Assembly: GCF_006345805.1 (NCBI RefSeq)
Contig: NC_043007.1
Span: 62,124,001 to 62,188,000 of the forward strand
DNA: 64,000 nucleotides
Reading direction: 5' to 3'
Origin: Octopus sinensis
Lineage: Eukaryota
A program made the position numbers and the translations under genes. The notes beneath the pieces were generated by a model. The model saw only the letters and a list, made by a program, of their open reading frames with translations. It did not search any database and was not told the origin of the DNA. Shown in pieces: positions 3,007 to 39,957 of this stretch. Position 1 is the stretch's first letter; each line of letters begins with the position of its first letter.

Positions 3007-3090
3007 CTTGTTCTGTAGCATCCGAAAGTTGTGAAACGATTGTCCGTATCATCGCAAAAGACAGCAATCCGGGAGCACCAACTAATCCGG
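3007..3090 (-). CDS. slc46a: SLC46-family transporter, putative shared (constant) 84-bp exon, about TM11
   Basis: Acceptor ttatttttctcaaatttcag and donor G|GTAAAC, phase 1 to phase 1. Translates (A)GLVGAPGLLSFAMIRTIVSQLSDATEQ(G), matching the PCFT segment ...PVIRAKLSKLVRETEQG. Human SLC46A1 exon 3 is also 84 bp (28 aa). Confidence 0.88.
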
Positions 3091-3814
3091 CTGAAATTTG
3101 AGAAAAATAATTGAATGTTTTGTTTATTATTCTTTCTAATGGTGCGATATATGTATTTTCATACATACATGTATTTGTATGTGCGTGTGTGTGAGTGTTT
3201 GTACATGTGTGTGTGTGAGTTTGTGTGTGCGCGCGCGTACATATGCATATGTGCGTGTGTATGTATGTTTTCTACTCTTTTTGTATAAAGCTAAGTCTTT
3301 TGGCTACTGGAAATAAAGTTGGACAATCGTGGTGCTGATGACGACTATTGAGCCAGAAGCACATGTCCACAACAATGTTCTTATCTCCAGACAATAAGCT
3401 TGTCCAATTGATAATGAAATTTCAGTTTTGAAGAACCCTTTATTCCTGAAATTATTTCGCCTTGAGCTGTCCAGAATTGCCATTTAGTAATTATGATTCT
3501 CCTTTGAGACAGAGATAATTTTAATAAATCAAGAATCTATGTTCTTTATTTATTGAAAGCATGAAGTTAAAAATGTATATAATCTTATAACATATGTAAC
3601 ATGTATGTATATGATATATGAATAATACAAAACCACATTAGAATATAAATCCTAGACAATAGTCATGATTATTCCGTAATATAAGATTTTACAAAAGAAG
3701 AACAAAGCAAAGAAAAAAAACTGGAGAAAAAAGGAAAGAGTGGAGAGAGAAAAAAAGAGGATAAAAAGCATCAATGCAGCACCAAGTGCTTCAATTGGTT
3801 ACACACCACAAGGT

Positions 3815-4030
3815 TCATCGGAATCTAGTGAAGTAAGCCAACACACTCGCAGCATTATTACAGGCGATAGCATGGCTAAGGCGTTGGAAAAGCCAAACGC
3901 TTTCATGAGTATCACTTGACACCTCGGTGAGGCATGCTGCCAATGATGACAAGAACTTCGTGGTTAGTGGCTCAGTCCCTTCAAATGTCTCAAATACCAC
4001 AGGCTGGAAGAGATAGTTCACTGTCAGGTT
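3815..4030 (-). mobile_element. 3' fragment of a CRE-like (RLE) non-LTR retrotransposon
   Basis: Translation FQPVVFETF...FQRLSHAIACNNAASVL resembles the CRE-clade C-terminus (VETLG...QRLSIAIQRGNA). Confidence 0.6.
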
Positions 4031-4654
4031 ATTTAACATACTTGTAATTTTGTGTGTGTGTGTGTGTGCGCGCGCGTGTAATAATAATAATAATAATATC
4101 TTTTCATGAATATATATCATCGGTGAGGATAACTTTGCTAAAAACAAATAATCAAAAGCAAGCGCTACAATCCGAAATAAAGAAAGGAAAAAGATATTAT
4201 CTCTAAGATGAACTGACGTTAAATTAAAATTGGAAATAGTTATCTAGAGAAGAGAATAATAGTCTGCTCTTTAAGAGACACTGTGTCAGTTTCGGACATT
4301 GTTTCGGTATAATTCAACTTCTTCAATTAATAGGATAATAGTTATGCATATATATATATATATATATATATATATATATATATAAGCTTGCGGCGGAAAA
4401 CAACACAAAGACTGATAGTAATTATTCAAGGAAACATCCTAATGGAAAATAAATAATGATTACATTTTCTACAAAGTACAATAGTCCTCTATTTTACGAG
4501 AAGTAACTGAGATAATAGTCACGCTTATTACTTTCTCAAGTTCATAATTGAAATCGGGCTACGGTTTCAATTTTCGAGGCTCTTCGTTCTTGCTCTACGT
4601 TGTCTTTCTGCCACCGTTGAGAAGAACATTAATGGTATTGCAATGAATAGTTAC

Positions 4655-36229: not shown

Positions 36230-37800
36230 GCTGTTTAATGTAATTAGCATAATCATAAATAACAACAACAGCTACATCACGCTCAAATCATATATTCACA
36301 GTACGACACCAAACGAAAGCCCTTAGCAAGTATTTTCCAAAAACAGCCATCAAAAAGCACACGGTGACGGTAAGAATACAAAACGACAAATTCGCCCATT
36401 CTCCTGTACCACGATTTCAACCCCTTCCTTCCAAAATGAATAAGGAACTCTAAAAATACATAAGCCTCGCGGTCAGACAAAATCACAACTGAAATACGAA
36501 GAGCGTGAAGGAAGCCTAGCATACACTAATGTCTACAACGACCAAATTCTTAGAATCTGGAAGCTAGACGAAATCAAAATTATCCAGGTGAAGTAATATC
36601 ACACAGAACTATTATCTTCCTATGCACACTTCAAAAATTCTAGAGCGGTTAATCCTTAATATCTCACACATCCTTCCCCGCAATACTTCAGATCATGACC
36701 ACAACACACAACCACCTCAACTATTCATGGACTTAACTCTGAAAATACATGATCGCAACGACAACGACAAAAAAAAATTAATAAACACCCACACGTACCG
36801 TTCTAATTACCATCCACATCAACAAAGCTTTCGCGTTCATTCCTCGCTATCCACTCGTACAAATAATTTCAAAACCACCTCAAGAAACAACACAAAAGTT
36901 TCGCCAGCAAACTACTTTTCAGACCACCAAACCAAATTAGTGTTAAAAAATATTTCCTGCGACTGACATTCCCTTTCCCTCGCCCCCAATGGGCCACCAC
37001 AAAGATCCAAACCTTCATTCATTCTTCTCCGTCTTCGCCTACACGACTTTGTCACATCTCCGGAAAACATACTATCCCGTATGCAGATGTCATCACTCTC
37101 ACGTCCTCTAGCCACTAATCTAATCCTATTTAAATTACAAAGAAACCTGGCTCCACAGACTTACCAAATCCCCTTTTGCCTCTTACCAACAACACCAGAG
37201 AACATCGCTTACAGCTAACAGTTACGCACAACGCTATAAGCATTATACGTGCAAACTGGAGAAAGACAAAAATACTAGGAGTTATGAACAACTTTTCTAC
37301 AATATTTAGATCATACAGATAACTTAGTAAAGAAAGCAAGACAACGCACGAACATACTTAGAGCAATCAGAGGGACCATTTTTTTAAATCTAAGGGGAAA
37401 AAAAAATGACAATGTTCTAAAAGAAAAACAACAATGGTGTACAAACAATATCTTGGATACATCATGGACTCTGCCAGACTTGCCTGAACGCCCTGTCTCT
37501 CAAAGAACAAACCACAATAAACTACGAAAAATATAAAACAACCGACTACGCATCATAACAAGTTGTATGCAGCCTACCCCGACAAACTACTAACAAAAAG
37601 AAACAAAACCATTTAAAATGAAAGAAAACCAGTTGGACATATGAGAGTTTGTTGCTGCAAGTTACAAACTACCACAGCTTTTATCACTACATGAAGAACC
37701 ACTTCCAAATATATACAACACATATACAACACCGCAGAGACTTTCTACTACATTCTAAAACCACCCCTCTCTCACTTAGTCCGTAAAAGCATATAAAAAT
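36230..37800 (+). mobile_element. Decayed LINE reverse transcriptase region
   Basis: A/C-rich strand with degenerate GPPQRS (GVPQGS-like) and YADV (YADD-like) motifs near 36990-37090. Confidence 0.5.
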
Positions 37801-38807
37801 AAACACAGATATAACTGCAATATCAATTGTACTGAGTTGAATATCTCCGTCAGAATGTGCAAGGGAGCAGCAACTGCCTGCTCTGACCTGTCTATCCCGC
37901 TCACCTGCGCTGTAGTCTTTACATAAATCTACGAGTATACAGGAATGATCTGGGAAATCGAAAAAGCGGTGTGTCCCGGATTCTCATGTCGCACCTCATA
38001 CAATATAACACTGTTGCACACACGTAATATAACAATGCATGCCGGAGTATTCAGTGTTGTACGTGTTTAGACGGACAGACGATACAACTGGAAAGAACAA
38101 TTTTTGACATATAAGTGTGTCATAGGACTGCTCGATGAGGGCTAACTTGGGACAACACAAAACTACTTACATTGAGGACTTTGATAAACCAATCAGCTTT
38201 ATGTGTCTCAACAAATTCAGGTTGCACAATTTATATGTAGAAACATCAATGGATTCAGATAATCGATTCAGAATAACATGCGTTATTGAGAGAGATGTTA
38301 TTTTTAGCTGGTCACTCGATCTGTTAAATGTAGAACAACAGTGGCGGTGGAGTAGAGCTAGATGTGCAAACCACACAGGGCAATCACTTTCTAAACGTGT
38401 GTTTGTTGTAGTCGGAGGTATGTTACATTTAAGGAAGAATGTGGATACTGCACAGGAGTGGGGTGGGGGTACAAATCTCAAGCTATGCCACAAAGTACAT
38501 ACCTCCAAAGTACACACTATTGTCTGAGAGAGAGAAAAAAATGGATATTGGATAATGTAAACCGAAATATGTGATCGGTGAAAAGAAGATGGATATTTGT
38601 GCTTGATCACAAATCTCAATCAGGAATACCTTGAGTCAAAGCATCAATAACAACGAGAATAATAATAACATAGAGGGAAGCAGATATATTTCATTCTTCT
38701 ATATTTCAGATATATATTTCAGACTTATCTGTAAAGTTAATTTGTCGAAATTTTCGTCAAAAAGAAATGCAGAGAAAAATTTTTCGAAATAAATTCAATG
38801 TACTTAC

Positions 38808-39957
38808 CTAAATAAATTTGCCAGTCTTCAGTGCTGAAAGCTTTGACAAGAGACCGACCGATAAAAAACAGCAGTGAAGAACTTGCTATGAGCGCTTCAG
38901 GTAAACAACATTGCATCAATCTCATGAAAATCACTGTTATGACTGGTATTACAAATGACGAGACTGCTCCATAGTTTCCAATCTTTACAGAATCCCAGCA
39001 GAAAGGCGAATTTAGGACATAGAGTGTATCAATATCAAATTGTCCAATGACGCTTTGTGACAATGCTGCAAAAGCTAACAGACAAAGCCAGAACTTCAAT
39101 TTGTTGGGTTTAGGTTTATTTTTGCTACCAGTATAAAATTTTAGCGTTCTGAGAATGCTTTTCTTCGGAGAAAGATCTGAAAAACTTCCTTTTTTCACGG
39201 TTTCTGGAACAATAAATATGAAGATAATCGAACTGAATATTGAGAGACTTGTAGCAAATACAAGCGGCCAAAAGAATCCTGTTGCACGAATGAAATAACC
39301 GGCAGACATATTTGCCAATCCAAAACAAACATGGAAAATACTATCTGATGCTACAAGAAAGAATGACCGCTTTTCGTTCTTTGGTGTAATGTCTGCTGTA
39401 TAGGCATATGTTACCAAAATAGACAAAAAATAACTCCCAGAAAAGCCTTCAGTCATGTATCCTAATATCAAATATTCTGTACGGAGGTGAAATTTCATCA
39501 CAATACCATATATAACGTATTTTATCATGTGTCCGAATGCATTGAGAAGAAATACTGCTTTTCTGCCAAGAACATCGGTCCATGATCCAGCGATAAGGAC
39601 CGTAATGATGCTTGGTATTCCATAACATAGAGAAAAATATTGCAACCATTGTGCATTGATAGCTTGGACTTGCTGTTGGATGGCATAACCAGGCAAAGAT
39701 TTATTAACGAAGCAGTGCCCCAGACGTAAGTTATCGTCATCACTGGAATGGACTGTGATGTTCGATTCTTCAAGGTACTCCTTACTGATTTTTGCGTAAA
39801 GGAATTGCGTCATCACAGGATAACCGATCGCCGAGGCGCACGACTGGAGTACATGAACGACAAAATACATATAATGACGCCAGCTGACATTCTCCACTAA
39901 AGATTCTGATCTCTGTAGTTGTTTCTTGGAAGCAGCACCATTTTCTTCTGTAGCCAT
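38808..39957 (-). CDS. slc46a: SLC46-family MFS transporter, variable exon D (~TM1-10)
   Basis: Intact 1150-nt exon (383 codons + 1). TQFLYAK, GSWTDVLGRK, YAYTAD, SPFCWD. Consensus donor TTAG|GTAAGT at the homologous position. Confidence 0.92.

What the first reader, a model, noticed from the sequence alone, without database searches (positions are those of the whole stretch)
3007..39957. SLC46 transporter locus with multiple variable ~TM1-10 exons apparently spliced to shared constant exons (UGT1A/protocadherin-like)
Seen: four same-strand paralogous exons, each with its own ATG, end at the same homologous phase-1 GT donor (4655, 10411, 23946, 38808). By eye I found only one downstream exon (3007-3090) and none between the variable exons. 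Splicing to it is in frame and stop-free for B (WMLYA-AGLVGAPG), C (WMLYL-SGLVGAPG) and D (WQIYL-AGLVGAPG). B, C and D are strongly diverged yet intact amid decayed TEs. The recent A/B duplication copied only the upstream region, the exon and ~0.55 kb of intron, showing how the array can grow. Known: UGT1A and vertebrate clustered protocadherins use this design, and an MFS fold needs 12 TMs. Inference: one gene produces several transporters with different substrate cavities and a common TM11-12/C-tail. I do not know of this being described for an SLC46/MFS gene.
Basis: partly seen in the sequence, partly recalled or inferred. Interest (0 to 1): 0.93.

Follow-up and report, generated by a model that had tools for sequence, protein, structure and literature searches.

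The report
Octopus transporter with swappable front ends
One octopus gene makes three different membrane transporters by splicing any of three interchangeable front ends (nine of the twelve membrane helices) onto one shared back end, a design known from vertebrate detox-enzyme and nerve-adhesion genes that also appears in cuttlefish.

Summary
Confirmed, with corrections. Three intact exons (B, C, D; 1.13-1.18 kb; 40-57% identical proteins) and one dead copy (A) end at the same phase-1 donor. There are three shared exons, not one (3090-3007, 516-360, and one 2.8 kb beyond the window), each single-copy across 164 gap-free kb. The three exon chains equal RefSeq Octopus sinensis isoforms X1-X3 letter for letter, so automated annotation already holds them. 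RNA-type contigs show the shared exons joined to B and to a non-B exon of C's length (inferred from lengths). Two cuttlefish-type spliced proteins share an identical 133-residue tail on 52%-identical fronts, and the exon families predate the octopus/cuttlefish split. The variable exon carries TM1-9, not TM1-10. The shared TM10-12 keeps the PCFT gate arginine and glutamate, while the arginine's TM5 partner is Gly, His or Asp by isoform. TM10-12 is unusually conserved (81% versus 49-58%). Substrates and separate promoters for C and D are untested. Ten paper searches found no SLC46 case. This scan noted similar designs earlier in SLC16, Rh and AIG1 genes on other DNA (unchecked), none in SLC46. 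New variant of the UGT1/protocadherin design.

The parts
38808..39957 (-). Variable exon D, ATG to phase-1 GT donor, 1150 nt, TM1-9; RefSeq isoform X2 (XP_029643288.1)
   Evidence: Pfam MFS_1 E 2e-09
23946..25074 (-). Variable exon C, ATG to phase-1 GT donor, 1129 nt, TM1-9; RefSeq isoform X3 (XP_036363467.1)
   Evidence: Pfam MFS_1 E 1.4e-11; held at 0.86-1.00 of words by 13 of 24 listed runs, all 13 guessed to be RNA, and by 3 runs of unknown kind
10411..11590 (-). Variable exon B, ATG to phase-1 GT donor, 1180 nt, TM1-9; RefSeq isoform X1 (XP_036363466.1)
   Evidence: B-lettered contigs in runs X1 and X9 stop at the donor with 30 and 28 non-intron letters
4655..5904 (-). Variable exon A, a recent dead copy of B: TGA at codon 140, 132-nt dispersed-repeat insert (5461-5330), 62 nt lost
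   Evidence: the longer contigs laid here carry B's letters
4095..7218 (-). Duplicated block carrying A (copy of 9835-12874 carrying B): 1.3 kb upstream, exon, 560 nt of intron
   Evidence: blastn 95-97% identity
3007..3090 (-). Constant exon c1, 84 nt, most of TM10, holds the Arg equivalent to chicken PCFT R384
   Evidence: 1 DNA match in the genome
360..516 (-). It splices on to c3 outside the window (window -2758 to -2968, 211 coding nt, end of TM12 and tail)

Best explanation
A single SLC46-family (MFS) gene of coleoid cephalopods. The ancestral gene has one giant exon (ATG to the start of TM10) followed by three small exons. Tandem duplication of the giant exon with its upstream DNA built an array, D-C-B-(A). 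Each intact copy is most likely transcribed from its own promoter, and its donor is spliced to the one acceptor at 3090, skipping the nearer copies. The result is three 12-helix transporters (543, 526, 533 aa) with different TM1-9 and identical TM10-12 and tail. SHOWN: the anatomy, single-copy constant exons, open frames, identity with RefSeq isoforms, and two fronts on one identical tail in cuttlefish-type spliced proteins. STRONGLY INFERRED: splicing of B and of C in octopus RNA (from contig lengths, not letters). INFERRED: separate promoters (supported for B only), and different substrates or proton coupling, because the TM5 residue that pairs with the shared TM10 arginine in PCFT is Gly (B), His (C) or Asp (D), and PCFT's folate residues are not kept. 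The likeliest cargo class is the organic anions or conjugates that SLC46 proteins carry; it is probably not folate handled in the PCFT way.
For: tblastn and two HMM scans of 164 kb without N find one c1 and one c2, and the locus-built profile also one c3. Genome-wide there is 1 DNA match for c1 and 1 strong protein match of 6 for c2. Control: the same scan finds separate downstream exons for each of two tandem SLC46 genes on C6 and a one-to-one exon set on C1. 3 of 3 exon chains are identical to RefSeq X1, X3, X2. O. bimaculoides X1/X2 share a 149-aa tail on 58%-identical fronts, and Logan proteins P0025/P0028 share a 133-aa tail on 52%-identical fronts. TM10-12 is 81% identical between octopus and cuttlefish-type proteins against 49-58% for TM1-9; 35 ordinary SLC46 pairs average 49% vs 43%, maximum 58%. 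An AU test rejects octopod exons as one clade, p 6.8e-96. Model: pLDDT 79.5, 12 helices, best match PCFT 7BC6, E 8.8e-20.
Against: No junction letters were seen: the joint and loose-end tables were swamped by repeat rows (290 joints and 1504 loose ends not shown). D-to-c1 rests on RefSeq and GenBank models in three Octopus species, whose supporting reads I could not view. The runs are only guessed to be RNA. The Argonauta record for C (GAB1609741.1) is an unspliced 379-aa model. No shared promoter-like stretch among B, C and D was found by blastn of 3 kb upstream, and each ATG has a possible acceptor 5-23 nt upstream. In decapodiform-type sequences a B-related lineage (P0037, P0039) has its own tail, so whole-gene copies also exist. 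No transport data exist.
Confidence: 0.85

Rival explanations
1. Same shared exons, but one promoter: a common non-coding first exon upstream is spliced to one of the three 1.1-kb exons in a mutually exclusive way (Dscam1-like rather than UGT1-like).
For: AG dinucleotides after pyrimidine-leaning stretches lie 20 (B), 23 (C) and 5 (D) nt upstream of the ATGs. The 5' ends of C and D transcripts were not seen.
Against: B-lettered contigs in X1, X9 and X14 run unspliced 54, 87 and 93 nt upstream of the ATG, past the possible acceptor, and in X1 and X9 they end there with no extra letters. The A/B duplication carried 1.3 kb of upstream DNA, as a promoter-bearing unit would.
Confidence: 0.15
2. The architecture is real, but the isoforms do the same job; the array only gives one transporter several promoters and tissues, and TM1-9 differences are drift.
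For: No assay exists. Runs differ in which isoform is assembled (B full in X1 and X9, fragmentary in X5 and X14), which fits regulatory division, although contigs cannot rank expression.
Against: Cavity positions differ between isoforms yet are kept between orthologues: TM5 is 10/32 to 17/32 identical between B, C, D but 32/32 (C) and 30/32 (D) between two Octopus species, and the E193-equivalent is G/H/D. B-type and C/D/E/F-type exons have both survived since before the octopod/decapodiform split.
Confidence: 0.25
3. B, C and D are separate genes whose own downstream exons were lost or collapsed in the assembly; the RefSeq isoforms are read-through artefacts.
For: Whole-gene tandem SLC46 copies exist in this genome (C6). 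A 1541-nt 99.8% tandem copy at 31386-34444 shows recent duplication or local assembly trouble.
Against: No N in 164 kb; c1 is single in the genome; the same shared tails appear in O. bimaculoides models and in cuttlefish-type spliced proteins; the constant contig breaks exactly at the c1 acceptor in two runs.
Confidence: 0.03
4. C and D are mainly used as unspliced nine-helix proteins ending at a stop 11-23 codons into the intron.
For: Read-through tails are short and look conserved between octopus species (P0001, P0017, P0023, P0035).
Against: Such proteins would lack most of TM10 and all of TM11-12, which close the inner gate (PMC7612623). No AATAAA or ATTAAA lies in the first 700 nt of the C or D intron. 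Those records are gene calls that simply read through the donor.
Confidence: 0.04

Closest known systems
Vertebrate UGT1, GCNT2 and UGT2A clusters (Li and Wu 2007, PMC1885805; passages read)
   Same: Tandem, unusually large, same-phase variable first exons, each spliced to one set of constant exons; pseudogene relics; birth-and-death of variable exons; the variable exon carries most of the substrate-recognition part.
   Different: Those are glycosyltransferases whose variable and constant parts are largely separate domains, and the paper calls these clusters vertebrate-specific. Here the cut falls inside one 12-helix bundle, at the start of TM10, so three constant helices must pack against three different nine-helix partners. 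No conserved promoter motif was found here (crude test).
Vertebrate clustered protocadherins and chelicerate sDscam 5' cassettes (Yue et al. 2016, PMC4835542; passages read)
   Same: Variable 5' cassettes on alternative promoters joined to constant exons; sDscam shows that the design occurs in invertebrates.
   Different: Cell-surface recognition proteins with many cassettes; here three live cassettes in a solute carrier, with no evidence of stochastic choice.
Human tandem-exon substitutions in membrane proteins (Martinez Gomez et al. 2021 [authors recalled], PMC8373072; passages and part of the supplement read): N-terminal swaps in CLDN10, CLDN18, ASIC1/2, SLC25A24, SLC41A3, SLC44A2; internal swaps in SLC12A1, SLC7A2, SLC25A3, SLC39A14, SLC8A1/3
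   Same: Homologous alternative exons that change part of a transporter or channel.
   Different: The largest swap in that catalogue is just over 250 residues, and the 11 SLC rows of its event table include no SLC46 gene. The swap here is 376-393 residues, about three quarters of the membrane domain.
SLC46 family: PCFT/SLC46A1 (PDB 7BC6/7BC7), SLC46A2, SLC46A3, Drosophila CG8046
   Same: Best sequence match (E 4.8e-40) and fold match (E 8.8e-20, TM 0.70/0.84); R384 and E407 equivalents kept; extracellular Cys pair kept (C75, C313 invariant). The family carries folates and muropeptides (PMC11509177, passages).
   Different: PCFT's R156, D164, H289 and Y323 are not kept, and E193 varies by isoform, so PCFT's folate-binding mode is not expected.
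RefSeq automated models 'solute carrier family 46 member 3-like' isoforms X1-X3, Octopus sinensis; X1-X2, O. bimaculoides
   Same: The very same proteins.
   Different: Database entries only; no description of the architecture was found in the 10 paper searches.

Membership tests
Variable-first-exon / constant-exon cluster (UGT1, GCNT2, cPcdh type) | Tandem array of paralogous large exons on one strand | tested here: met
   D, C, B, A on the minus strand; 40-57% protein identity among B, C, D
Variable-first-exon / constant-exon cluster (UGT1, GCNT2, cPcdh type) | All variable exons end at a homologous donor of the same phase | tested here: met
   1180, 1129, 1150 nt, all phase 1, GT donors
Variable-first-exon / constant-exon cluster (UGT1, GCNT2, cPcdh type) | One set of constant exons downstream, none between | tested here: met
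   with positive controls on C6 and C1
Variable-first-exon / constant-exon cluster (UGT1, GCNT2, cPcdh type) | More than one variable exon is spliced to the constant exons in RNA | tested here: met
   Contig geometry in 4 of 4 runs laid (lengths, not junction letters); identical 133-aa tail on two fronts in Logan proteins. D itself rests on database models only.
Variable-first-exon / constant-exon cluster (UGT1, GCNT2, cPcdh type) | Each variable exon has its own promoter | tested here: inconclusive
   B contigs are unspliced up to 54-93 nt upstream of the ATG; C and D 5' ends not seen; possible acceptors near all three ATGs
Variable-first-exon / constant-exon cluster (UGT1, GCNT2, cPcdh type) | Conserved motif upstream of each variable exon | tested here: inconclusive
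   blastn of 3 kb upstream found only repeat-like hits between B and D and none for C; too crude for short motifs
Variable-first-exon / constant-exon cluster (UGT1, GCNT2, cPcdh type) | Birth-and-death of variable exons with relics | tested here: met
   Dead copy A; lineage-specific C, D versus E, F clades
SLC46 family (MFS) | 12-helix MFS fold, nearest solved relative an SLC46 | tested here: met
   (2 of 3 exons hit MFS_1; B did not)
PCFT / SLC46A1 folate transporters | TM4 Arg156-Asp164 pair, TM5 Glu193, TM7 His289, TM8 Tyr323 | tested here: not met
   Tyr, Gly or Ser, Gly/His/Asp, Leu or Val, Pro at these positions, mapped through one pairwise alignment at 26% identity
PCFT / SLC46A1 folate transporters | TM10 Arg384 and TM11 Glu407 | tested here: met
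   R392 and E415, both in constant exons
SLC46 family (MFS) | Proton-coupled transport of an organic anion | not testable with these tools
   needs a transport assay

The most novel reading that the evidence does not exclude
A modular MFS gene kept across coleoid cephalopods: a fixed, unusually constrained TM10-12 gate module docks onto alternative nine-helix bodies, so one locus yields transporters that differ in both cargo and proton coupling (Asp in D able to pair with the shared arginine, His in C titratable, Gly in B unable to pair), chosen per tissue or per cell by promoter choice as in UGT1 and the protocadherins.
Probability: 0.4. Interest if true: 0.82.

Novelty: new variant of a known kind. 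Interest (0 to 1): 0.64.

Why it matters
It extends the UGT1/protocadherin design to a solute carrier in which the variable/constant cut lies inside one helical bundle. It is a natural chimera series: three transporters with identical TM10-12 and 40-57% identical TM1-9 let one ask directly which helices set cargo and proton coupling in the poorly understood SLC46 family, and how far an MFS C-terminal bundle tolerates mixed partners. The jump in conservation of the shared part (81% vs about 55%) is a measurable cost of serving several partners and a simple signature for finding more such genes. It also matters for annotation: gene-level counts merge three transporters into one.

Tried and rejected
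Direct reading of junction letters failed: C's donor is 20,856 nt from c1, beyond the 20,000-base limit, and in the stretch laid (300-6400) repeat-derived contigs filled the joint and loose-end tables. No RNA holder was on record; the RNA label is the tool's guess. A screen of 152 proteins (144 new representatives plus 8 earlier ones) for long shared stretches, and of all 204 proteins then held for a shared tail on a diverged front, found such pairs only among the cephalopod proteins. This is weak, since clustering at 50% hides such isoforms and only the best 150 of 6613 hits were seen. The two SLC46 exons on C6, 67 kb apart, looked like a second case but are two complete genes, and the C1 gene has one large exon in 140 kb. 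Haliotis rubra 'isoforms' P0056/P0057 differ to their last residues, so they do not share a tail. A search with the constant part against longer proteins gave only 5 cluster representatives. The careful tree of 28 rows did not finish, so quick trees are cited. A search for the human SLC46A1 exon-3 size found nothing relevant, so the match of c1 (84 nt) and c2 (157 nt) to human exons 3 and 4 is recalled, not checked. Zhang, Haws and Wu 2004 and the 2015 octopus genome paper were not held and were not read.
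Full report
Observation. On the minus strand four paralogous exons end at homologous GT donors: D 39957-38808, C 25074-23946, B 11590-10411 and A 5904-4655. B, C and D are open from ATG to donor (1180, 1129, 1150 nt, all phase 1). 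A is a 95-97% copy of B inside a 3.1-kb block (4095-7218 vs 9835-12874) and is dead: TGA at codon 140, a 132-nt repeat insert, and 62 nt lost. It missed c2 at 516-360, and c3 lies at window -2758 to -2968.

Only one constant set. tblastn over 164 kb without N (40 kb downstream, the window, 60 kb upstream) finds four large exons, one c1 and one c2. A profile built from the locus proteins finds those plus c3, with the next hit at E 1.5. A profile built from 70 of 100 full-length non-cephalopod SLC46 proteins finds the large exons, c1 (weakly, E 0.057, with low-complexity noise from E 0.12) and c2, but not c3. Genome-wide, c1 DNA has 1 match and c2 protein has 1 strong match of 6 listed. A B query gave 8 matches: 5 here, 2 on C6, 1 on C1 (counts are lower bounds). 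Controls: on C6 each of two tandem SLC46 genes has its own downstream exons, and on C1 one giant exon is followed by c1- and c2-type exons. So the scan does see such exons in far-diverged paralogues, and the giant-exon-plus-small-exons layout is the ancestral one; read-through records of other molluscs stop at the same site. A very diverged 28-residue exon could be missed, but a c2-type exon would most likely not.

The isoforms exist in databases. B, C and D each joined to c1-c2-c3 translate to 543, 526 and 533 aa and are letter-identical, 3 of 3, to RefSeq Octopus sinensis 'solute carrier family 46 member 3-like' isoforms X1 (XP_036363466.1), X3 (XP_036363467.1) and X2 (XP_029643288.1). O. 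bimaculoides X1 and X2 are D and C on a common 149-aa tail; O. vulgaris has D plus tail; Argonauta has B plus tail, and C as an unspliced model with the adjacent accession. These are automated models; I could not view their read support.

RNA evidence. 4 of 24 listed runs were laid on 300-6400; they are contigs, and RNA only by the tool's guess. Junction rows were crowded out by repeats, so the argument is from lengths in table 8. In all four runs one contig holds c2 as an isolated piece. In X1 and X9 exactly 86 letters lie upstream of that piece (84 of c1 plus 2 that fit either side), so the contig stops at the c1 acceptor, as an assembly graph does where several paths merge. In the same two runs a contig with B's letters (the listed differences match the A/B differences) and without A's insert stops at the donor with 30 and 28 further letters that do not match the intron, the overlap expected for a splice into c1. 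Depth in bin 2952-3155 equals 86 times that contig's depth over 204 in X5 (9.91) and X14 (5.4). Thus at least two fronts, B and most likely C, meet c1. D is not shown by this call. No listed contig carried A-specific letters.

Conserved beyond octopods. Logan proteins P0025 (525 aa) and P0028 (513 aa) have 52%-identical fronts and an identical 133-aa tail; their unspliced twins P0005 and P0030 end at the same donor. P0028's cluster includes a named Sepia pharaonis record, hence 'cuttlefish-type'. Three ENA gene calls (P0006, P0007, P0036), each on one contig of 228,301 bases and so presumably the same contig, are E-, F- and B-like fronts. Quick trees group C, D, E, F (99) apart from B, B-like and G (93), and an AU test rejects octopod exons as one clade (p 6.8e-96; LG+G4, 14 rows). 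At least two exon types therefore predate the octopod/decapodiform split; the order of events was not tested. Against a simple picture: the G lineage (P0037, P0039) has its own tails, so whole-gene copies arose too.

Where the cut falls. The AlphaFold model of the C isoform (pLDDT 79.5, pTM 0.78) has 12 helices; TM9 is 347-366, TM10 371-398, TM11 401-433, TM12 440-480 (helix numbering is my reading), and the junction is at 376/377. The variable exon is TM1-9 plus one turn of TM10. Nearest structure: chicken PCFT 7BC6. In PCFT the inner gate is TM4-5 against TM10-11, held by Glu193-Arg384, and the ring of pemetrexed is held by Glu193 and Glu407 (PMC7612623, passages). Here R384 and E407 map to R392 and E415 in the constant exons. 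E193 maps to Gly in B, His in C, Asp in D, and Gln and Glu in cuttlefish-type E and F; it is kept between Octopus orthologues of C and D but is Asp in Argonauta B. R156, D164, H289 and Y323 are not kept. This mapping rests on one 26%-identity alignment and may be off by a residue near gaps. Inference: a common gate half, with different cavities and perhaps different proton coupling.

A signature of sharing. TM10-12 is 81% identical between octopus and cuttlefish-type proteins and 93% between octopus and Argonauta, against 49-58% and 65% for TM1-9. In stand-alone pairs both parts diverge alike (66/67, 60/60), and over 35 non-cephalopod pairs with 40-65% front identity the means are 43% and 49%, maximum 58%. 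This fits a module constrained by several partners, or fast-evolving fronts, or both; orthology of the fronts is imperfect, which lowers their figure.

Promoters. B contigs run unspliced 54-93 nt upstream of the ATG, which favours its own start site. Possible acceptors sit 20, 23 and 5 nt before the ATGs of B, C and D, and no shared upstream sequence was found, so a common leader exon for C and D is not excluded.

What is known. The design is that of UGT1, GCNT2, UGT2A and the protocadherins (PMC1885805, passages) and of chelicerate sDscam (PMC4835542, passages). Human transporters and channels have smaller homologous swaps, the largest in the catalogue just over 250 residues (PMC8373072, passages and places 3-18 of two terms in its supplement). 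Ten searches (listings and abstract starts) found no paper on SLC46 or MFS variable exons; the library lacks most subscription papers, and bioRxiv supplements were closed. Also read as passages: PMC8978580, PMC11929075, PMC4978886, PMC11509177. Earlier notes of this scan describe three alternative starts in an SLC16 gene (TM1 only), an Rh gene and an AIG1 gene (unchecked), so the design recurs in animal membrane proteins; what stands out here is the size of the swap and its conservation across coleoids.

Verdict. Real, conserved, already present as automated isoform models, and not found described in the papers searched. A new variant of a known design. Architecture about 0.95, separate promoters about 0.8, different cargo or coupling about 0.65. 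Interest 0.64.

Noticed in passing
window 5904-4655 vs 11590-10411: A differs from B at 12 non-synonymous or nonsense and 6 synonymous codons, clustered in TM2 (codons 113-120) and around TM5 (205-232), with several multi-base changes, while 435 nt elsewhere are identical. It may have been diverging in cavity helices before it died, or have been partly homogenised by gene conversion.
   Followed up: partly
window 31386-34444: A 1541-nt tandem copy at 99.8% identity carrying helicase-like ORFs (31525-34249; the Pif1/Helitron label is recalled, not tested) between C and D; recent duplication or assembly artefact.
   Followed up: no
window 15946-16122: A 177-nt, 88-89% copy of DNA about 270-450 nt upstream of the ATG of B and A; a relic of an earlier duplication of the B upstream region, or a dispersed repeat.
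   Followed up: no
first 25-70 nt of the introns after 10411, 23946, 38808: Read-through peptides are identical or nearly so in other octopus records whose exons differ by 7-15% (P0001, P0004, P0017, P0023, P0035), hinting at conserved donor-proximal intron sequence; the neutral rate is unknown.
   Followed up: no
G000:C6:67953574-68037268 (L025-L042): Two complete tandem SLC46-like genes, with an extra intron in TM7 compared with the window's gene, each with its own downstream exons; a 100-N gap at 67960488.
   Followed up: yes
G000:C1:191830028-191880804 (L043-L056): An ordinary SLC46-like gene with one giant TM1-9 exon and c1- and c2-type exons at matching positions, 47-50 kb downstream.
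   Followed up: yes
proteins P0037, P0039, P0040: A B-related decapodiform-type lineage with its own tail; P0039 keeps the shared Arg and Glu but has Tyr at the E193-equivalent position.
   Followed up: partly
window 43747-44556 and 40898-41624: A 269-aa transposase-like ORF (mariner label recalled, not tested) and a four-copy 184-nt array of a dispersed repeat just upstream of D.
   Followed up: no
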